From a virus (lineage: Duplodnaviria > Heunggongvirae > Uroviricota > Caudoviricetes): a DNA stretch of 64,000 nucleotides. The stretch lies in the IMG/VR virus record IMGVR_UViG_3300033076_000972, positions 43,329 through 107,328 of that record, one strand, 5' to 3'. The notes below the pieces were generated by a model. That model made no database searches and was not told the origin of the DNA. It was given only the letters and a program-made list of their open reading frames with translations. Position numbers and translations under genes: made by a program. Within the stretch, counting starts at the first letter, position 1, and each line of letters starts with the position of its first letter. Below, piece by piece: positions 3,553 to 45,235 of this stretch.

Positions 3553-4208
3553 AAAAAATAATTTCATTTTCATTATGGGGTGACAACCCAAAATATACAA
3601 TTGGTGCAATTGAGAACGCTAAATTAGCTAAAATAATATATCCTGATTGGGTATGTCGATTTTATGTTGGTACATCAACACCTGATGAAATTTGGGATGA
3701 ATTATATGATATGGACAATACTGAAATGATTAATATGGATATTGAGGGAGATTGGTCAGGAATGTTTTGGAGATTTTATCCTGCATCTGAAAATGATGTA
3801 GATGTTTTTATTGTTAGAGATACCGATTCAAGATTAAGTAAAAGAGAAAAACAAGCCGTTGATGAGTGGTTATCATCAGATAAAGGATTACATATAATGA
3901 GAGACCATCCTTATCACAATAGTTTAATTATGGGTGGAATGTGGGGAATGAAAAAAGGTACATTTCCTAAAATGAAAGAATTAATTGAAATTTACAAGGG
4001 TGGTGATTTTTGGCAAGTTGACCAAAACTTTCTAAATGAAATGGTTTACCCTTTATGTAAAAACAATACATTTATACATGACGAGTTTATGACATTTGAA
4101 ACTTGGAAAAAACCATTTCCAAGTGAAAGAAATGATAAAGAATTTGTTGGAGATGTTTTTGATGAAAAAAATCAAAGGCACCCCGAATATTATAAATTTT
4201 TAAACTAA
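3549..4208 (+). CDS. Hypothetical protein, possible DxD glycosyltransferase
   Basis: FIVRDTDSRL is a DxD-type motif. An ATGA overlap with the upstream gene indicates co-translation with the cluster. Confidence 0.3.
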   Translation: MKKIISFSLWGDNPKYTIGAIENAKLAKIIYPDWVCRFYVGTSTPDEIWDELYDMDNTEMINMDIEGDWSGMFWRFYPASENDVDVFIVRDTDSRLSKREKQAVDEWLSSDKGLHIMRDHPYHNSLIMGGMWGMKKGTFPKMKELIEIYKGGDFWQVDQNFLNEMVYPLCKNNTFIHDEFMTFETWKKPFPSERNDKEFVGDVFDEKNQRHPEYYKFLN

Positions 4209-28206: not shown

Positions 28207-29976
28207 TTATCTTCTACCGAATAACCATAAATACTGTTCATAATCCTTTTTTGTTGGATTTGATGAAAAAGTATCATTATGACTTGATGGTGATAAAACA
28301 GGAATACCAGGATGAAATTGTGTTATTTCTCTGTTTGTACTATCATCGGCAACAGTCCAAGAACTTAACATGGCTTTAGTTTGTTCATTAACTTTTTCAA
28401 GTTGATTATAAGCGTTTTGACCTACATATAAAGCCATTGATATTGACATAATTAAATCATCATGATGTCCTTTCATGTGGTCAGGTCTTCCGTTCATATA
28501 CACAAACGTATTCATTTCACCAAGTAATCTTTGTGAATACAATTTAAATCCGTGTCTTAAAGCTTCCTCAAATGCTGATATAATTTGAACCCTTTTACTG
28601 TTGAAGTTAATACCTGGTATTTTTTCGTTTGACTTAACTGTTGATTCCCAAATATTTCCATAATTGATACCATCAACATATAAATTTTTATATCCCATTT
28701 CTTGTAACTTTCTTGATGTAGATACACCCATACCACCTGTGATATCAATTACAATAAATGCATCATAATAATTTCCCCACTTATATGCAATTTCAGCTGC
28801 AACATCAGGAGGTAGTTTTCCAACATATTCAGCAACTTGTTCTCTTTCATCAAAATCAATAACTTGAAACGATGTAAAGTCTTCTGAATCACCTCTTGAT
28901 ACGTCCATACCCATAATGTATCTGTGTCCAACAACTGGTTCTTTCCAAATCCACAATTGATTCTGAACCATCTTTGATTCAGGATGACGAACCATTTCAG
29001 TTCTAATTTTGTCGGTTAATTGTGCGTCAAACACGTTATCACCTGAACCCAAAAAGTTACATTCCAATTCCTGAGAAATTTTTCTCTTATCAAACTTTAA
29101 CTTTTTAGCCATGGTTTCAAACCAAGTAGAACTTACTTTGTAACCATCATCCATCAATTTTTTAAACTCATCAAAATTTCTCTCACTTTGTGGAATACCT
29201 TCATAACTTATAATTTCAGGGTTAGGATATTCTTCACGATTCAAAAAATAATGTATAATATCTTTAACCTTAATAAAATATAAATCTTTAGTATATCTTG
29301 GGTCTCTCCACCAAAACATTTCAGTAATCTTGAAATTATTCATCGCCTTTACAGCTTGTTCATAGATACTGTAATAAATTGCGTCATATCCATTCGGTGT
29401 GGAAATAACAATAACTTTACCACCTGTAGAAAGTGAAGCCATACAAGCTGCCCAGAAATCATCACCAGCCTCAATATACGCCGCCTCGTCAAATATTAAC
29501 ACGGTAGGGGTATAACCACGAAGTGCGTCATTTGACGTTGCAACGGCTTTAACCTCACAACCATTACTTAATTTCCAATGTCGAGCAGCATTTTTTTCGG
29601 TGGAAAATGTAACTCCCATCCATGCTGGCCATTGTTCTGTAAATTGTTTAATTTTATTTGCAAATTCAACAGATGTATCTAACTTGTTTGCAATAATCAA
29701 AATTTTCTCAGGTTTTTCTTTTTTAGCAAAAACCAATTTTTTTGAACTCCAAGCAGCAGTTACTGTTGATACACCCGCTTGACGATACTTTAAAGCAATG
29801 TTTTCTTCGTAGTTGTCATAATCTTCAACTAACTGAATTTGGTCGGCAAATAAATCTAAGGGAACGTATTTTGACTGTGTATTGTCATACGTTTGTAGAT
29901 ATGTTCTTAAAGCATATGGTGTGTTTCTTACACACTTGGCATATTCTATAAGGGCTTGTTCTTTTGTGATACTCAT
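28207..29976 (-). CDS. terL: Terminase large subunit
   Basis: N-terminal ATPase with a Walker A-like YRQAGVST and Walker B VLIFDEAAY. A C-terminal nuclease-sized domain is present; total 589 aa. Confidence 0.8.
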   Translation of the reverse strand: MSITKEQALIEYAKCVRNTPYALRTYLQTYDNTQSKYVPLDLFADQIQLVEDYDNYEENIALKYRQAGVSTVTAAWSSKKLVFAKKEKPEKILIIANKLDTSVEFANKIKQFTEQWPAWMGVTFSTEKNAARHWKLSNGCEVKAVATSNDALRGYTPTVLIFDEAAYIEAGDDFWAACMASLSTGGKVIVISTPNGYDAIYYSIYEQAVKAMNNFKITEMFWWRDPRYTKDLYFIKVKDIIHYFLNREEYPNPEIISYEGIPQSERNFDEFKKLMDDGYKVSSTWFETMAKKLKFDKRKISQELECNFLGSGDNVFDAQLTDKIRTEMVRHPESKMVQNQLWIWKEPVVGHRYIMGMDVSRGDSEDFTSFQVIDFDEREQVAEYVGKLPPDVAAEIAYKWGNYYDAFIVIDITGGMGVSTSRKLQEMGYKNLYVDGINYGNIWESTVKSNEKIPGINFNSKRVQIISAFEEALRHGFKLYSQRLLGEMNTFVYMNGRPDHMKGHHDDLIMSISMALYVGQNAYNQLEKVNEQTKAMLSSWTVADDSTNREITQFHPGIPVLSPSSHNDTFSSNPTKKDYEQYLWLFGRR

Positions 29977-29993
29977 CCCTTATAAATACTCCG

Positions 29994-31325
29994 TTACTTG
30001 GTTGGCGGAGTATCTATACCTAAATCGCTTAGGAAACTTAGGTCAATATCATCGTCATCATCGTCTTTTGACGGATAACCCATAGTATCGTCATCATCAT
30101 CTTCCTCATAGTTTGAACTACCCAAAATTTCTTCCAAATCTTGTTTATTAAGTTCATCAATGATTTGGTCGGCAATACGTTCCATTTCAGTATACGCAGT
30201 TGCATCACCTTTATTAACTCTTTGTGCTAAAGATGTGAATTTGTTTTTTGGTAATTTAGAAAATTCTCTAAAAATTAAACTCTGAACAATTTTCATGTTA
30301 TCTTCTAAAACTTTTGCAGGATATGATTCTAACAATTTTTCCCATAAATAAGTTCCTGTGATGATATCAAAAATTTCATTTACTAATGTATCTGCGGTTT
30401 GTTTAACCATTTGAGCCTGAATTGGGTCAGTAGGTAAAGAAGCGGCTCCTAATATATCGTAATAACCTTTAATTAATTCATGAACTAAGATTGGAAACAT
30501 AACCGCCTTTGCTTTAACAACAAAGTTACCTGTATATTCACCATCCTCATCTTGCTCCATTTCAATCTCTTCAGAACCACCCATATTTTGTCCTGATGCA
30601 GCCATTTGTTGAACCATTTGTGGTGGTAATAACCAATACAAATAATCATTCATAGCCATCAAAGCTCCATATTTGTCAGTAATACCAGGTTCCATCTCTT
30701 CTAACCCATCTCTAATTAATTCAAACATAAAATGACCTTTTTTAGCTGCTCCTTGAATAATTGCGTTCATAAATCTACGTTTAGCAACCATGTAATCGAA
30801 GTTTTCAAACGCATCTACAAATTCTTCCAAATCCTCACCAGAATCCTCAAACGCTAATTCAATATCTTCTGATGAAAATTCTTCAGGTTCTGCTTGGAAA
30901 TTTTCATTTCCTGTTTCACCCATCCCAACTAACTTAGGGTCAAATTTAATAAATTCGGCATATTTTGGGTCAACTAACTCTTTAGAAACTAAGTCTTTTG
31001 CCATTTGTTCAAGTTGTTCTTTTCTTGAACTTTCAAATTGCATTACTTCACCAAAAAGTCTCATCATCATCATTTGAAGACCACCCATGTTGTTAGGTAC
31101 ATTCATACCCAAATATCTTTCAAGTTTTGAAACAACATCTCTAAATCTTTTTGAAGCTGCAATCTCCTCAAATGATTGTCTATCACCTTCACCTTTCTTT
31201 GGTATAAAAGGACTGTTTGAAAGTGGCGTTTCACCTCTTTCAATAGCTCTTTTTAAATCAGGGTTCATTCTAAAACCACCTGGCTCATCAATAGGAGCTT
31301 CAAATATATTATTCTTGTTTTTCAT
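29994..31325 (-). CDS. Hypothetical protein with an acidic C-terminus
   Basis: 443-aa ORF ending in EEDDDDDTMGYPSKDDDDDDIDLSFL. Confidence 0.45.
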   Translation of the reverse strand: MKNKNNIFEAPIDEPGGFRMNPDLKRAIERGETPLSNSPFIPKKGEGDRQSFEEIAASKRFRDVVSKLERYLGMNVPNNMGGLQMMMMRLFGEVMQFESSRKEQLEQMAKDLVSKELVDPKYAEFIKFDPKLVGMGETGNENFQAEPEEFSSEDIELAFEDSGEDLEEFVDAFENFDYMVAKRRFMNAIIQGAAKKGHFMFELIRDGLEEMEPGITDKYGALMAMNDYLYWLLPPQMVQQMAASGQNMGGSEEIEMEQDEDGEYTGNFVVKAKAVMFPILVHELIKGYYDILGAASLPTDPIQAQMVKQTADTLVNEIFDIITGTYLWEKLLESYPAKVLEDNMKIVQSLIFREFSKLPKNKFTSLAQRVNKGDATAYTEMERIADQIIDELNKQDLEEILGSSNYEEDDDDDTMGYPSKDDDDDDIDLSFLSDLGIDTPPTK

Positions 31326-41381: not shown

Positions 41382-41765
41382 GGGGATGAATGGAATCGAC
41401 AGGTATTGTTGATTGATGGATGCACGTATGAGCTGAGTTAACTCATTAAAAACTGATTTAAAAAATTAGACGGCAACGTTTTGAACAAAATGGCAGCTAT
41501 CGGTTTAATCCGTGAAGATGCTTCTGTATTAGCTTAATTGTTAGTACAACTCAGGTCGGGGGACATATAACCTAGGAACAGAAGTCTTGAGAGATGTGGT
41601 TTCTATCTTAAAAGAAACAAGTGGAGGATTAGTTCTCAGTAAACCGAACCACTATAAAATAAGGGAATTGTGAAGTTCGGAACATTAGCAAATGTTGACC
41701 TAAACGTGTAGTATCTATTGGTTAAGGTAGACTGGACGAGGGTTCGATACCCTCCATCTCCACCA
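41382..41765 (+). ncRNA. ssrA: tmRNA (SsrA), phage-encoded, with the CCA encoded in the DNA
   Basis: The 5' end GGGGATGAATGGAATCGACAGG aligns with E. coli GGGGCUGAUUCUGGAUUCGACGGG. The 3' end GGACGAGGGTTCGATACCCTCCATCTCCACCA aligns with GGACGCGGGUUCAACUCCCGCCAGCUCCACCA. A 7-bp acceptor stem (GGGGATG/CATCTCC, one G-U pair) and a T-arm GAGGG-TTCGATA-CCCTC are present. Upstream of the tag, AAAAAUUAGAC is followed by the resume codon GGC at 41472, giving the tag GNVLNKMAAIGLIREDASVLA and a TAA at 41535. Confidence 0.8.
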
Positions 41766-43143: not shown

Positions 43144-43179
43144 GATAAGTATTTGATACTTAGGTGTCAAATACTTATC
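43144..43179. repeat. Perfect 13-bp inverted repeat (hairpin GATAAGTATTTGA / TCAAATACTTATC with a 10-nt loop)
   Basis: Seen directly in the sequence. No T-run follows it. It overlaps the upstream TTG of the HNH ORF. Confidence 0.6.
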
Positions 43180-43193
43180 ATTACACAGAGTAT

Positions 43194-43703
43194 ATGGAAA
43201 AAGTATTAGTATTAAACAGCGATTACACACCCTTGAACGTAACAACAATGCGTAGAGGATTTGTATTGGTTGATAAGGGTAAAGCTGAAGTATTGAAAAA
43301 AGATGAAAATCCGATTGTTACTACTATTGGTAATTTTGTAAGACCAATCATCATTAGATTACTCAGTTATATCAGAATTAAGAAAAACGCCAAAGACATC
43401 AAGATTTCTCGTTCAAGAGTTTATCAAAGGGACGGACATGCTTGTGTATATTGTGGAGGAAATAAGAAATTGACAATTGACCATGTAATACCAAAATCTC
43501 GTGGTGGTGATAATACTTGGGAAAACATGGTCACTTGTTGTTTTGATTGTAACTCAAGGAAGGGAAGTAAGACACCTGAAGAAGCTGGTCTTAAATTTAG
43601 GGTTCGTCCTTATAGACCTTCAGTGTTTTCTGAACTTGTTGCGGGTCGTGCTGCACATATTTGGGAAGAATTCCAACACGATTTATTTGGTTTTTCAAAT
43701 TAA
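43194..43703 (+). CDS. Free-standing HNH endonuclease
   Basis: CVYCGGNKKLTIDHVIPKSRGGDNTWENMVTCCFDCNSRKG is an HNH motif with a Cys4 zinc site. The first ATG is at 43194 (the ORF track starts at TTG 43164). Confidence 0.75.
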   Translation: MEKVLVLNSDYTPLNVTTMRRGFVLVDKGKAEVLKKDENPIVTTIGNFVRPIIIRLLSYIRIKKNAKDIKISRSRVYQRDGHACVYCGGNKKLTIDHVIPKSRGGDNTWENMVTCCFDCNSRKGSKTPEEAGLKFRVRPYRPSVFSELVAGRAAHIWEEFQHDLFGFSN

Positions 43704-43716
43704 TTTCTTATCTTTG
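43687..43716 (+). promoter_or_regulatory. Promoter TTG-N19-TATCTTTG upstream of the tRNA-Leu gene
   Basis: TTG at 43687 and TATCTTTG at 43709-43716. The tRNA 5' end is at 43748. Confidence 0.5.
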
Positions 43717-43781
43717 TATAAGAAGTAAAAATGTTCTTTGATTTAATGCTCGGGTGATGGAATGGTAGACATGAAAGACTT

Positions 43782-44474
43782 AAACGTATTTTGTATACCT
43801 AATTGATATTTATCAATATGGGAAATGAAAAATATACAAAAGAGTTTTTGGAATCTATCGTTAAAGAATGTGGGTCAATAAGACAAGTTTTAATAAAACT
43901 TGGACTTAAAGAAGCTGGTGGTAATTATCATAATATTAAAACAAGAATAAAATTGTTTGATATTGATATTACCCATTTTCACGGAATGGTTTGGAATAAA
44001 GGTAAAAAATGGTCAAAAACCAAAGATTTATCTTCTAAATTAGTTGAACACTCAACATATTCGTCAGGTCTTCCAATTAATACATATGTTTTGAAAAATC
44101 AATTGTTAAAAATTGGTATTAAAACCCACATATGTGAAAATTGTGAATCTATTGAATGGTTGGGTGTTGAAATTCCTTTAGAATTACACCACATAAATGG
44201 TAATCGGTTTGATAATCGTATTGAAAATATACAACTATTATGTCCGAATTGTCATGCTTTAACTGAAAATTATAGAGCCAAAAATATGAGTGCTAGATGA
44301 GAAATTGTCTAAGTAGAACTCCGTAAATTCGGTGAACCCTGTAAAATGGGAATACCGAGCCAAGCCGAAAGGAAGGTGTAGAGACTAGACACGGAGAACC
44401 TAAGTCAGTTGATATGGTTAAGGTATAGTCCAGACCACAAACTATAAATAGGTAACGAAAGTTATAGTGGTAAG
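43782..44474 (+). mobile_element. Group I intron (carries an HNH ORF) in the tRNA-Leu anticodon loop
   Basis: The conserved core is present: an R-like GAGACTAGACACGG (44381-44394) and S element AAGGTATAGTCC (44420-44431) form P7 (GACTA/TAGTC). A U precedes the 5' splice site and the intron ends in a G (44474). This is the same insertion site as the cyanobacterial and plastid tRNA-Leu(UAA) intron. Confidence 0.7.
43818..44300 (+). CDS. Intron-encoded HNH homing endonuclease
   Basis: CENCESIEWLGVEIPLELHHINGNRFDNRIENIQLLCPNCHALTE is an HNH motif with CxxC…CxxC. The ORF lies entirely in the 5' part of the intron, before the ribozyme core. First ATG at 43818. Confidence 0.7.
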   Translation: MGNEKYTKEFLESIVKECGSIRQVLIKLGLKEAGGNYHNIKTRIKLFDIDITHFHGMVWNKGKKWSKTKDLSSKLVEHSTYSSGLPINTYVLKNQLLKIGIKTHICENCESIEWLGVEIPLELHHINGNRFDNRIENIQLLCPNCHALTENYRAKNMSAR

Positions 44475-44526
44475 AAAATCTTTTGGGTAGTAATACCCGT
44501 GCGGGTTCGAGTCCCGCCCCGAGTAC

Positions 44527-44560
44527 TAAAAGAAAAAGGTGTCTCACGACACCTTTTCTT
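44527..44560. terminator. Bidirectional intrinsic terminator
   Basis: AAAAGAAAAAGGTGTCTCACGACACCTTTTCTT. Confidence 0.65.
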
Positions 44561-44596: not shown

Positions 44597-45235
44597 CTAT
44601 ATGGAATTCCGAATCTCTTCGGCTTTAGCATCCATTTTATCGGACACCTTTTTGAGCTCTGAACAAATTTCTCCCATCATTTTATCTTGTAAATCTCTGT
44701 GGAAATTATCATCACCCATGATTGTTTGAACTGAAGATTTAAATACCTGACCTGTTTTTGACCCTAATTCGGTGTCAATTCCTGTTGCCAAGATATTATC
44801 ACCAAAACCTTGTATCATTCCTTTAGACACTTTGTCTGTCAAAAATCTACAATCTGAAAAAAGTTTTGGAACATCTTCATCACTTACATTTTCAATTTCT
44901 GCTTTTACTGCGTTTCTTACCCAACCATCAAATTCCATTTTATCTGAAATCCAATCTGCCAATCTTGATTTAACTGTTGCAAAAAACTCACTATCAAATT
45001 CACCAAATAAACCTTGTAACATGTTGAACAAAGATTCGTTGATTAATTTGTTTGAGAAATTTTTACTTTGGAAAATATTAACTTTATGTATTGTGGTTTC
45101 TATTAACGAATCTAAATCAGAACAGTTTTTTAATGTTCCGAAATGATTGTCAAGAATTTTACTTTCAATCATCAAAGAAGTTTTGTTCTGTTTTTCTTCT
45201 AATAAAGCCCCACGCAATTTCTTTCTAAGATTCAT
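44597..45235 (-). CDS. Hypothetical protein
   Basis: ORF. Confidence 0.45.
   Translation of the reverse strand: MNLRKKLRGALLEEKQNKTSLMIESKILDNHFGTLKNCSDLDSLIETTIHKVNIFQSKNFSNKLINESLFNMLQGLFGEFDSEFFATVKSRLADWISDKMEFDGWVRNAVKAEIENVSDEDVPKLFSDCRFLTDKVSKGMIQGFGDNILATGIDTELGSKTGQVFKSSVQTIMGDDNFHRDLQDKMMGEICSELKKVSDKMDAKAEEIRNSI

What the first reader, a model, noticed from the sequence alone, without database searches (positions are those of the whole stretch)
43748..44525. Phage tRNA-Leu(UAA) split at U34/A35 by a group I intron that carries an HNH homing endonuclease
The locus folds by hand into a complete class-II tRNA-Leu only if 693 nt between the U of the anticodon and the following AAAA are removed. 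Those 693 nt contain an HNH ORF (43818-44300) followed by a recognisable group I core: the R-like GACTAGAC and the S element AAGGTATAGTCC form P7, and the intron ends in a G. The insertion point is exactly the one used by the ancient cyanobacterial and plastid tRNA-Leu(UAA) intron. Here it sits in a Bacteroidetes-phage gene and carries a homing endonuclease, which the cyanobacterial introns normally lack. This bears on the mobility and origin of that intron family.
Basis: partly seen in the sequence, partly recalled or inferred. Interest (0 to 1): 0.85.

Follow-up and report, generated by a model that had tools for sequence, protein, structure and literature searches.

The report
Mobile self-splicing intron in phage tRNA-Leu
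A phage leucine-tRNA gene is split in its anticodon by a self-splicing group I intron carrying its own DNA-cutting (HNH) enzyme; the same intron turns up in many phage and bacterial genomes, where annotation misses it, so phages may help spread this classic "ancient" intron.

Summary
Removing 43782-44474 (693 nt) turns a locus where ARAGORN finds nothing into a clean class-II tRNA-Leu(UAA). The intron follows U34 and ends in G. Rfam's group I model hits 44270-44455 (40.2 bits, E 1.5e-8, below the cut-off of 50).

One correction: the HNH gene (43818-44300) is not simply followed by the core. It fills the P1 loop, and its last codons are the internal guide (GAGU, 44288-44291) and the 5' strand of P2.

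A hand-built structure holds across 26 viral homologues: 97.5% of cells paired against 33-40% when slid, and 44 of 72 pairs change on both sides.

Sibling phage contigs carry an intron-less tRNA-Leu(UAA) at the same locus, between the same promoter box and terminator. A third sibling keeps only a tRNA remnant.

The intron is not unique. At least 31 of 80 sampled IMG/VR contigs, the cultured Agrobacterium phage Atu_ph07 and two published megaphages have it, unannotated. The HNH family lies in or beside tRNA-Leu(UAA) introns in 51 of 80 sampled bacterial loci.

Verdict: a real, probably mobile element and a new phage-borne member of a known kind. Splicing and homing are inferred, not shown.

The parts
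43708..43716 (+). Promoter-like box TTATCTTTG, resembling the Bacteroidetes -7 motif TAnnTTTG, 32 nt upstream of the tRNA
   Evidence: The same box lies upstream of the intron-less allele in sibling contigs L215/L216 and of the remnant in L214. It occurs 5 times on the + strand of the window against 2.0 expected. Function is inferred.
43729..43747 (+). tRNA leader, shared with unrelated intron-bearing phage loci but not with sibling phages
   Evidence: Homology to L002, L004, L005, L064 and L066 begins at about 43726-43748. The motif TGTTCTTTGA is shared with L001 and L003 (alignment A1). Siblings L215/L216 have a different, shorter leader.
43748..43781 (+). tRNA-Leu(UAA) 5' exon (positions 1-34, ending C32 U33 U34)
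   Evidence: ARAGORN on the spliced sequence. Acceptor, D and anticodon stems covary across 26 homologues.
43782..44474 (+). Group I intron, 693 nt, following U34 and ending in the terminal G at 44474
43779..43782 (+). P1 5' strand (exon CUU plus the first intron A); the 5' splice site follows U43781
   Evidence: C-G, U-A and U.G pairs with GAG 44288-44290 are invariant in 26 of 26 sequences. ORF-less homologues place the same GAGU 8-15 nt after the splice site.
43818..44300 (+). HNH homing endonuclease gene (160 aa): N-terminal helical domain, C-terminal zinc-binding HNH domain; lies in the P1 loop
   Evidence: PHROG 10822 at 1.9e-41. Pfam HNH_3 at 23.9 bits. The cysteines, histidines and asparagines C106, C109, H125, N137, C142, C145 and H146 are invariant. 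AlphaFold mean pLDDT is 84.5. 1378 homologous clusters.
44288..44291 (+). Internal guide sequence GAGU (P1 3' strand), inside codons Met-Ser of the ORF
44294..44311 (+). P2 hairpin (UAGAUGA / UUGUCUA) with a GAAA tetraloop at 44301-44304; the ORF stop codon TGA 44298-44300 is in its 5' strand
   Evidence: All 7 pairs change on both sides across homologues (helix 6).
44319..44396 (+). P3 (44319-23 / 44392-96), enclosing P4 (44329-34 / 44353-58), P5 (44337-39 / 44348-50), P6 and P6a (44359-44372) and the P7 5' strand (44383-90)
   Evidence: Rfam alignment. P3 has 5 of 5 pairs with compensatory changes, and P4/P5/P6a covary. Coordinates.
44397..44419 (+). P8, containing the 11-nt tetraloop-receptor motif CCUAAG...UAUGG
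   Evidence: Read from the sequence. Helices 12 and 13 covary. The receptor role is inferred from general knowledge of group I introns.
44423..44430 (+). P7 3' strand (GUAUAGUC), forming the guanosine-binding helix with 44383-44390
   Evidence: The A-U pair becomes U-A in 7 of 26 sequences.
44435..44474 (+). P9 domain: P9 (44435-38 / 44467-70), P9a hairpin (44442-51), P9b hairpin with GAAA loop (44452-65), then UAAG ending in the terminal G
   Evidence: P9 and P9b covary (helices 14 and 15). Coordinates.
44475..44525 (+). tRNA-Leu(UAA) 3' exon (A35 to A73); no encoded CCA
44533..44558 (.). G+C-rich hairpin flanked by A and T runs: terminator-like, possibly bidirectional
   Evidence: Conserved in L214-L216.

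Best explanation
This is a phage-encoded tRNA-Leu(UAA) gene interrupted between U34 and A35 by a 693-nt self-splicing group I intron of the bacterial tRNA-Leu type. The intron carries a homing endonuclease gene in its P1 loop.

Proposed mechanism:
1. The unit is transcribed from the promoter-like box at 43708 to the hairpin at 44533-44558.
2. The core P3-P9 folds. The exon end CUU pairs with GAG of the GAGU guide (44288-44291) across the 504-nt loop, putting a U.G wobble at the splice site.
3. A free guanosine attacks after U43781. The terminal G44474 then enters the P7 pocket and the exons are ligated, helped by the anticodon stem that holds them together.
4. Host enzymes trim the ends and add CCA, giving an 85-nt tRNA that reads UUA and UUG. 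These make up 79% of the leucine codons in 19 large phage ORFs of the window.
5. The 160-aa HNH protein is translated from the precursor or the excised intron. Because its last codons are the guide sequence and P2, ribosome passage and ribozyme folding exclude each other.
6. The enzyme nicks or cuts intron-less tRNA-Leu(UAA) genes in co-infecting relatives, and repair copies in the intron plus flanking exon and leader sequence.

Shown here: the anatomy, the conservation of the structure, the intact ORF, and the presence/absence polymorphism at one locus. Inferred: splicing activity, endonuclease specificity, and the direction of transfer.
For: - The spliced product is a canonical tRNA-Leu(taa).
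- The Rfam group I model hits at E 1.5e-8, and a homologue reaches the curated cut-off.
- The hand-built structure, tRNA stems included, is 97.5% paired in 26 distinct viral sequences against 33-40% for slid controls. 44 of 72 pairs change on both sides, and 0 of 500 shuffles reach any observed value.
- The splice-site U.G pair and the terminal G are invariant.
- ORF-less homologues (LR756501, Atu_ph07, L069 and others) show that the ORF is an insertion into the P1 loop.
- The HNH catalytic and zinc-binding residues are invariant, and the protein aligns full length to homologues of 83-96% identity.
- Sibling contigs L215/L216 have flanks 89-91% and 77-78% identical and an intron-less tRNA-Leu(taa) at the same place. 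L214 has a deletion remnant.
- The window's exons are only 73% identical to the sibling allele but 81% to the intron-bearing allele of the otherwise largely unrelated L001. Homology to unrelated intron-bearing phages covers just the leader, tRNA and intron.
- TTA and TTG make up 57.7% and 21.6% of leucine codons.
Against: - There is no RNA or biochemical evidence.
- The Rfam score is below the gathering cut-off, and Pfam HNH_3 is 0.9 bit below its cut-off.
- P1 has only 3-4 pairs. P10 is weak in the ORF-bearing forms (AAUAU instead of AAUUU before GAGU), so splicing must rely on the anticodon stem.
- Sibling L214 has lost most of the tRNA, so the gene is dispensable and this copy could be decaying.
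- The polymorphism could reflect intron loss rather than gain.
- The structure was derived from the window sequence, which favours it over the slid controls.
- The viral homologues were collected with a 19-nt exact core motif, so they are a biased, closely related sample.
Confidence: 0.82

Rival explanations
1. The intron splices but is no longer mobile. The HNH protein is inactive, has been put to another use (for example as a splicing helper), or cuts some other target. The cassette is inherited vertically, and the intron-less siblings arose by precise intron loss.
For: No cleavage data exist. Closely related ORF-less introns are common, for example L069 at 87% identity in the 3' half, which shows that the ORF is often lost. 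The fold search gave no significant match to any characterised homing endonuclease.
Against: The catalytic and zinc-binding residues are invariant across 33 and 9 homologues. The same cassette sits in otherwise unrelated phage genomes. The window's exons and leader match those of other intron-bearing phages rather than its siblings. This HNH family is tied to tRNA-Leu(UAA) introns in 51 of 80 bacterial loci across several phyla and in different loops and orientations, which points to repeated invasion.
Confidence: 0.12
2. The locus is a decaying relic. The intron no longer splices efficiently, so the tRNA gene is effectively dead and is carried neutrally.
For: Sibling L214 has deleted most of the tRNA. 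Dulem virus 42 has the HNH ORF in a tRNA-Leu(UAA) gene with no ribozyme at all. The Rfam score is sub-threshold and P10 is weak.
Against: Every core helix of the window copy is intact; the structure tested was built from it. The ORF is full length. The tRNA keeps all stems, G18G19 and A73. The tRNA reads the phage's dominant leucine codons.
Confidence: 0.05
3. The cassette is host DNA. The phage captured a bacterial chromosomal tRNA-Leu(UAA) gene that already contained the intron and the HNH gene, rather than acquiring the intron by homing between phages.
For: Nine Bacteroidales genome loci share the sense-in-L1 architecture, and phages often pick up host tRNA genes.
Against: The bacterial proteins are only 42-53% identical, whereas viral and metagenomic ones are 72-96%. 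The 3' half of the ribozyme is 73-87% identical to most viral copies but 56-75% to bacterial ones, although the viral set was chosen by a shared motif. An intron-less phage allele occupies the same site in siblings.
Confidence: 0.06

Closest known systems
[quoted passage not shown]
   Same: Same host gene and same insertion point, 34/35 (PMC13011429). Same order of elements, as seen directly in a cyanobacterial assembly (Alkalinema, L151): guide UUGAGC, P2 hairpin with GAAA loop, AAAUUCGG...CCGAGC, GUAGAGACUAGAC, AUAGUCCAGAC, and a P9 hairpin ending GUAAG. My recollection of the Anabaena sequence agrees, but I could not check it with the tools.
   Different: The classical intron is about 250 nt with no ORF and is treated as largely immobile. 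This one is in a phage, carries an HNH gene in the P1 loop, and has an intron-less allele at the same locus in sibling phages. Identity of the 3' half to L151 is only 61%.
HNH-bearing tRNA-Leu(UAA) intron of Bacteroidota (noted in PMC13011429, Fig. 6) and the Bacteroidales loci found here (L155, L167, L169, L184, L186, L188, L207, L208, L211)
   Same: Same gene, same site and same HNH family. In the loci found here the ORF is in sense orientation, starts 2-36 nt after the 5' splice site and ends next to the guide sequence.
   Different: These are chromosomal or binned bacterial contigs. The proteins are 46-49% identical. The paper gives no structure, and its Table S6 could not be read, so identity with its example is not verified.
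Azoarcus tRNA-Ile group I intron (subgroup IC3)
   Same: A compact tRNA anticodon-loop intron (PMC13168695). From memory: a near-identical J6/7-P7 string (GGUGUAGAGACUAGACGG), GAAA loops on P2 and P9, and a receptor in P8.
   Different: Different tRNA and insertion site, no ORF, bacterial. The sequence comparison rests on memory, not on a tool result.
Phage group I introns with HNH or other endonucleases in protein-coding genes (T4 td/nrdB/sunY, SPO1 I-HmuI, Pf-WMP3 I-PfoP3I)
   Same: A phage setting and an intron-borne endonuclease. The same ribozyme clade also splits phage capsid and ribonucleotide reductase genes (HTVC120P, KT997847, RHph_N3_13).
   Different: The host gene is a tRNA. The 2014 review states that all phage introns then known were in protein-coding genes (PMC3984707). 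The core is of the tRNA-Leu/IC3-like type, whereas the classical phage introns are, from memory, IA2.
I-Ssp6803I in the Synechocystis tRNA-fMet intron, and LAGLIDADG genes in tRNA-Arg(CCU) introns
   Same: Endonuclease genes inside bacterial tRNA anticodon-loop group I introns.
   Different: Different endonuclease families (PD-(D/E)XK, LAGLIDADG), different tRNAs and sites, and not in phages.

Membership tests
Group I intron | Conserved catalytic core P3-P9, including the P7 guanosine-binding helix | tested here: met
   Rfam RF00028 at 40.2 bits, E 1.5e-8, below the gathering score of 50; homologue L002 scores 51.3. P3, P4, P5, P6a, P7, P8 and P9 are all kept by compensatory changes in 26 sequences.
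Group I intron | 5' splice site after a U that forms a U.G wobble with the internal guide sequence in P1 | tested here: met
   U43781 pairs with G44288. The three pairs C-G, U-A and U.G are present in 26 of 26 sequences, so they are invariant and give no covariation. The position of the guide is fixed by ORF-less homologues.
Group I intron | Intron ends in a guanosine | tested here: met
   G44474. All 37 validated introns end in G, but that screen only accepted 3' splice sites that follow a G, so the count is not independent evidence.
Group I intron | Guanosine-dependent self-splicing | not testable with these tools
   Needs an in vitro transcription and splicing assay, or RNA from infected cells.
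tRNA-Leu(UAA) intron family (IC3-type) | Insertion between U34 and A35 of tRNA-Leu(UAA) | tested here: met
   ARAGORN on the spliced sequence. Only this junction obeys the U-before and G-at-end rules; ARAGORN's own intron mode places the intron at position 37 and misnames the tRNA as Phe(aaa).
tRNA-Leu(UAA) intron family (IC3-type) | Sequence and structure homology to cyanobacterial and other bacterial tRNA-Leu introns; formal subgroup assignment | tested here: inconclusive
   The order of motifs matches a cyanobacterial assembly (L151) and other bacterial loci, with 56-75% identity in the 3' half. No subgroup-specific covariance models were available and no phylogeny was made.
HNH homing endonuclease | HNH (beta-beta-alpha metal) motif with catalytic His and Asn and zinc-binding cysteines | tested here: met
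   PHROG 10822 (HNH endonuclease) at 1.9e-41. Pfam HNH_3 at 23.9 bits against a 24.8 cut-off and HNH at 16.7 against 21.4, both just under. C106, C109, H125, N137, C142, C145 and H146 are invariant. The weak fold matches are to McrA-type HNH nucleases (not significant).
HNH homing endonuclease | Encoded within a self-splicing intron, with intron-plus and intron-minus alleles of the same gene in related genomes | tested here: met
   The ORF lies in the P1 loop. The intron-less allele is at the same locus in L215/L216.
HNH homing endonuclease | Cleaves or nicks the intron-less allele near the insertion site and drives intron inheritance | not testable with these tools
   Needs a cleavage assay and phage crosses.
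Bacterial-type tRNA-Leu | Class II cloverleaf: long variable arm, G18G19, A73 discriminator | tested here: met
   ARAGORN drawing. The stems covary. G1.U72 rather than G-C is found in 18 of 26 sequences. Aminoacylation is not testable.

The most novel reading that the evidence does not exclude
Phages are the vehicles that move the tRNA-Leu(UAA) intron between bacterial lineages. The HNH enzyme targets the nearly universal anticodon-loop DNA of tRNA-Leu(UAA), GACTT|AAAATC, so an infecting phage could seed the intron into the host's chromosomal gene as well as into other phages. That would explain the intron's patchy spread across Bacteroidota, Acidobacteriota, Gammaproteobacteria, Chloroflexota, Cyanobacteria and other groups. 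It would also weaken the classic argument that the cyanobacterial and plastid intron is ancient because it is immobile.
Probability: 0.3. Interest if true: 0.8.

Novelty: new member of a known kind. Interest (0 to 1): 0.6.

Why it matters
The tRNA-Leu(UAA) intron is the textbook candidate for an ancient intron inherited since before the plastid endosymbiosis. Whether it is immobile or moves sideways has long been argued.

This work shows a version equipped with a homing endonuclease sitting in a phage. An empty site exists in sibling phages, and the same cassette occurs in unrelated phage genomes. The matching HNH family is found in tRNA-Leu(UAA) introns of many bacterial phyla.

Together these give a concrete, testable route for lateral spread. 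They also contradict the 2014 review's statement that phage introns avoid tRNA genes.

There is a practical point too. ARAGORN and whole-window Rfam scans miss both the tRNA and the intron, so phage tRNA counts are underestimated. The cultured phage Atu_ph07, which has an unannotated ORF-less copy, offers an immediate experimental system.

Tried and rejected
- ARAGORN on the unspliced window and Rfam at gathering threshold found neither tRNA nor intron. A whole-window Rfam E-value scan also missed the intron.
- ARAGORN's intron mode places the intron at position 37 and calls the tRNA Phe(aaa). I rejected this because only U34|A35 follows a U and leaves a terminal G.
- I first took (A/G)AGU at 44313-44316 as the guide sequence, with UCU/UUU pairing to the intron start. 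I dropped this once ORF-less homologues showed the true guide, GAGU at 44288-44291, and showed that those bases belong to P2.
- The P9a hairpin was left out of the covariation test because its columns align poorly.
- A single-protein scan of genome contigs found nothing. The alignment-based scan succeeded.
- A PDB sequence search gave no hit. Foldseek against the PDB gave no significant hit; the best was EcoKMcrA at E 0.05.
- NCBIfam gave only weak IscB and ZorE HNH matches.
- Table S6 of PMC13011429, which would name the Bacteroidota genome, is not held.
- A full-text search for a remembered Anabaena intron string found nothing, so the comparison with Anabaena stays a recollection.
- Enrichment of TAnnTTTG in the window is not significant: 131 matches against 116 +/- 10 expected. 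The host phylum is therefore not settled.
- Literature searches found no description of a group I intron in a phage tRNA gene. The library covers open-access papers only.

Full report
**1. Observation**

ARAGORN finds no tRNA anywhere in the unspliced 64-kb window. Rfam at its curated thresholds finds only a tmRNA at 41382-41765. After deleting 43782-44474 (693 nt), ARAGORN calls a tRNA-Leu(taa) with a 7-bp acceptor stem, G18G19, a 5-bp anticodon stem, a long variable arm and an A73 discriminator.

When only 1.1 kb is searched, Rfam's group I model matches 44270-44455 over its full length at 40.2 bits, E 1.5e-8. That is below the gathering score of 50. A homologous locus scores 51.3.

The ORF 43818-44300 matches an HNH endonuclease PHROG at 1.9e-41. 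It matches Pfam HNH_3 0.9 bit under the cut-off. The window is from a phage: portal, large terminase and major head protein genes are present, and G+C is about 31%.

**2. Anatomy, with one correction**

ORF-less relatives show where the guide sequence lies. In the megaphage LR756501 and many IMG/VR contigs, the intron begins with 8-15 nt and then (U)UGAGUGC, followed by a hairpin with a GAAA loop.

In the window the same string is AAUAUGAGUGCUAGAUGA. This is the last five codons (N-M-S-A-R) plus the stop codon of the HNH gene.

- P1 is therefore exon CUU (plus intron A) 43779-43782 paired with UGAG 44287-44290, with the U.G wobble at the splice site.
- The ORF occupies the 504-nt P1 loop.
- P2 (44294-44300 / 44305-44311, GAAA loop) contains the stop codon.

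The rest of the core is:

| Element | Coordinates |
|---|---|
| P3 | 44319-23 / 44392-96 |
| P4 | 44329-34 / 44353-58 |
| P5 | 44337-39 / 44348-50 |
| P6, P6a | 44359-44372 |
| P7 | 44383-90 / 44423-30 |
| P8, with a CCUAAG...UAUGG receptor motif | 44397-44419 |
| P9 with two inner hairpins | 44435-44470 |
| Terminal G | 44474 |

A promoter-like box (TTATCTTTG, 43708) and a terminator-like hairpin (44533-44558) bracket the gene.

**3. Is the structure real?**

I aligned 26 distinct viral pre-tRNAs, with the P1-loop inserts trimmed (A2), and counted a hand-drawn structure of 72 pairs.

- 97.5% of cells are standard pairs, against 33-40% when the 3' partners are slid by 1-3 columns.
- 44 pairs change on both sides.
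- No shuffle out of 500 reaches any observed measure.
- Helices with compensatory changes: P2 (7 of 7 pairs), P3 (5 of 5), P4/P5, P6a, P7 (A-U to U-A in 7 sequences), P8, P9, P9b and all four tRNA stems.
- P1 is invariant, so it is neither supported nor contradicted by covariation.

Two caveats apply. The structure was drawn from the window sequence. The homologues were collected with an exact 19-nt core motif.

**4. An empty site and a travelling cassette**

The gene downstream of the tRNA (44597-45235, minus strand) finds three sibling contigs at 93-95% protein identity. Their DNA aligns with the window on both sides: 89-91% upstream to 43728-43736, and 77-78% downstream from 44489-44498. 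The interval between is not shared.

- L215 and L216 carry an intron-less tRNA-Leu(taa) there, between the same promoter box and the same hairpin.
- L214 keeps only the T arm and the 3' acceptor strand, which is a deletion remnant.

The window's exons are only 73% identical to the sibling allele. They are 81% identical to the intron-bearing allele of L001, which otherwise shares only the adjacent upstream HNH gene with the window. Its 19-nt leader resembles the leaders of L001 and L003.

Ten other HNH-intron contigs share with the window only the tRNA and intron, in five of them with the leader as well, and not the neighbouring genes. This is the pattern expected from homing with co-conversion, or from replacement of the whole tRNA locus. 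It does not prove the direction of transfer.

**5. How common is it?**

Of the 80 fetched, 31 were validated, by splicing followed by ARAGORN, as tRNA-Leu(taa) with an intron at 34/35. Most of these introns are ORF-less at 189-263 nt; six are about 690-760 nt and carry the HNH gene.

*GenBank phage records.* All of the following are unannotated.
- Agrobacterium phage Atu_ph07: a 278-nt ORF-less intron in tRNA-Leu(UAA).
- Megaphage LR756501: a 205-nt ORF-less intron.
- Megaphage LR756511: a homologous HNH gene in the P6 loop of its tRNA-Leu intron.

*The HNH family.* It has 1378 clusters at E <= 1e-10, and none carries a homing-endonuclease name.

*Bacterial genomes.* At least 562 loci encode relatives. 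Of the best 80, 51 are validated tRNA-Leu(taa) introns:
- 31 have the HNH gene antisense, between P4 and J6/7.
- 9 have it in sense orientation in L1, as in the window; all 9 are Bacteroidales.
- Several have it in sense orientation further 3', after P4 (two of them assigned to L6).
- 4 have an ORF-less intron with the HNH gene free-standing just downstream.

One of the 51 is a cyanobacterial assembly (Alkalinema), whose intron has the same order of motifs as the window's.

**6. Mechanism**

The mechanism is as set out under the best explanation:
- co-transcription of the tRNA and the intron;
- guanosine-initiated self-splicing, with the anticodon stem holding the exons because P1 is short and P10 is weak;
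- host processing to an 85-nt tRNA that reads the phage's dominant leucine codons (TTA 57.7%, TTG 21.6%);
- translation of a two-domain protein, an N-terminal three-helix domain plus a C-terminal zinc-binding HNH domain (AlphaFold mean pLDDT 84.5), which attacks intron-less alleles.

The overlap of the ORF end with the guide sequence and P2 implies that translation and ribozyme folding compete. All of these steps are inferred from the anatomy and from what is known of group I introns and HNH homing enzymes.

**7. Comparison with what is known**

- Position 34/35 in tRNA-Leu is the classical site (PMC13011429).
- That survey of complete bacterial genomes found endonuclease genes in only 12 of 333 tRNA introns. 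It lists an HNH gene in a Bacteroidota tRNA-Leu(UAA) intron, so the combination itself has been recorded.
- The 2014 review states that all phage introns known then were in protein-coding genes despite many phage tRNA genes (PMC3984707).
- Eight further full-text searches found no later report of a phage tRNA intron. The library holds open-access papers only.

The window element is therefore a new, phage-borne member of a known kind.

**8. Limits**

- Host phylum: Bacteroidota is plausible, from the L1 architecture and the promoter-like box, but unproven. The nearest isolates by portal protein are a Microcystis phage and a Flavobacterium phage at 38-39%.
- The subgroup label IC3 rests on resemblance, partly recalled from memory, not on a subgroup model.
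- No experiment supports splicing or homing.

Noticed in passing
window 41382-41765 (+): A phage-encoded tmRNA 2 kb upstream of the tRNA (Rfam RF00023, 100.8 bits, full length). ARAGORN did not report it. The region is about 80% conserved in sibling contigs L214-L216, and another viral contig (L011) has a tmRNA beside its tRNA array.
   Followed up: partly
window 43164-43703 (+): A second, free-standing HNH gene (Pfam HNH_5, 58 bits) directly upstream of the tRNA. It is conserved in the intron-less siblings, so it is not part of the intron. L001 has the same pair of genes.
   Followed up: partly
L214 (reverse complement about 3860-3930): A sibling phage keeps only the 3' remnant of the tRNA-Leu gene (T arm and acceptor 3' strand), joined to a leader like the window's. 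This looks like a deletion that removed exon 1, the intron and half of exon 2.
   Followed up: partly
L218 = Dulem virus 42, PP511876.1 about 85.2-85.9 kb: A homologous HNH ORF (47% identical, annotated 'NinG recombination protein') sits at the same U34 position of a tRNA-Leu(UAA) gene, but no ribozyme core follows. The ORF runs almost straight into the 3' half of the tRNA. This is either a dead tRNA or something unexplained.
   Followed up: partly
L219 = Agrobacterium phage Atu_ph07, MF403008.1 about 112.9-113.3 kb: A cultured jumbo phage has an unannotated tRNA-Leu(UAA) split at 34/35 by a 278-nt ORF-less group I intron. GenBank annotates a 'hypothetical protein' over part of it.
   Followed up: partly
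L217 = LR756511.1 about 408.7-410.4 kb; L013 = LR756501.1 about 190.2-190.6 kb: Two published megaphage genomes carry tRNA-Leu(UAA) introns. One is ORF-less (205 nt). The other has the HNH gene in the P6 loop instead of the P1 loop, which implies independent ORF insertions into the same intron family.
   Followed up: partly
L137-L210 (31 bacterial loci, e.g. L138, L151, L171): In Gammaproteobacteria, Acidobacteriota, one cyanobacterium and other groups, the same HNH family is encoded on the strand opposite to the tRNA-Leu(UAA) intron, between P4 and J6/7.
   Followed up: partly
L152, L158, L172, L202 (Bacteroidales assemblies): An ORF-less intron in tRNA-Leu(UAA) with the homologous HNH gene free-standing just downstream of the tRNA. 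This arrangement resembles the proposed precursor stage of mobile introns.
   Followed up: no
L141, L145, L168, L176, L190, L191, L195, L203 (Hymenobacter genomes): HNH homologues here are not in tRNA-Leu. ARAGORN's intron mode suggests tRNA-Gly genes with introns of about 610-640 nt in 7 of 12 Hymenobacter loci. This was not validated.
   Followed up: no
L025/L037/L075, L048, L068: Intron-containing viral tRNAs with a UAA anticodon but a short variable arm (73-75 nt after splicing). They are not class II leucine tRNAs, so their amino-acid identity is unclear.
   Followed up: no
L026, L045, L054 (Met CAT, 36/37); L072, L087 (Arg TCT); L055, L035 (Lys); L081, L090 (Thr); L014, L220, L221: The same ribozyme clade seems to interrupt other phage tRNA genes (tentative, from splice-and-ARAGORN screening). 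It also interrupts phage protein-coding genes: capsid in HTVC120P and KT997847, and ribonucleotide reductase in Rhizobium phage RHph_N3_13.
   Followed up: partly
L073 (intron ORF): In this copy the HNH reading frame lacks the usual stop and runs on through P2, P3 and P4 into the core (189 aa).
   Followed up: no
window 34632, 36013, 43708, 50355, 59270 (+): A recurring TTATCTTTG box on the + strand (5 found, 2.0 expected). The shorter TATCTTTG also precedes the tmRNA and two neighbouring ORFs (41270, 41821, 42360). It may be a phage promoter element.
   Followed up: partly
alignment A2, columns 2/320: The first acceptor pair is G1.U72 rather than G-C in 18 of 26 intron-containing viral tRNA-Leu genes, including the window's.
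   Followed up: no
window 28207-29976 (-) and 29994-31325 (-): The 589-aa terminase-like ORF matches terminase profiles only in its first 237 residues. The adjacent 443-aa ORF has no PHROG match.
   Followed up: no
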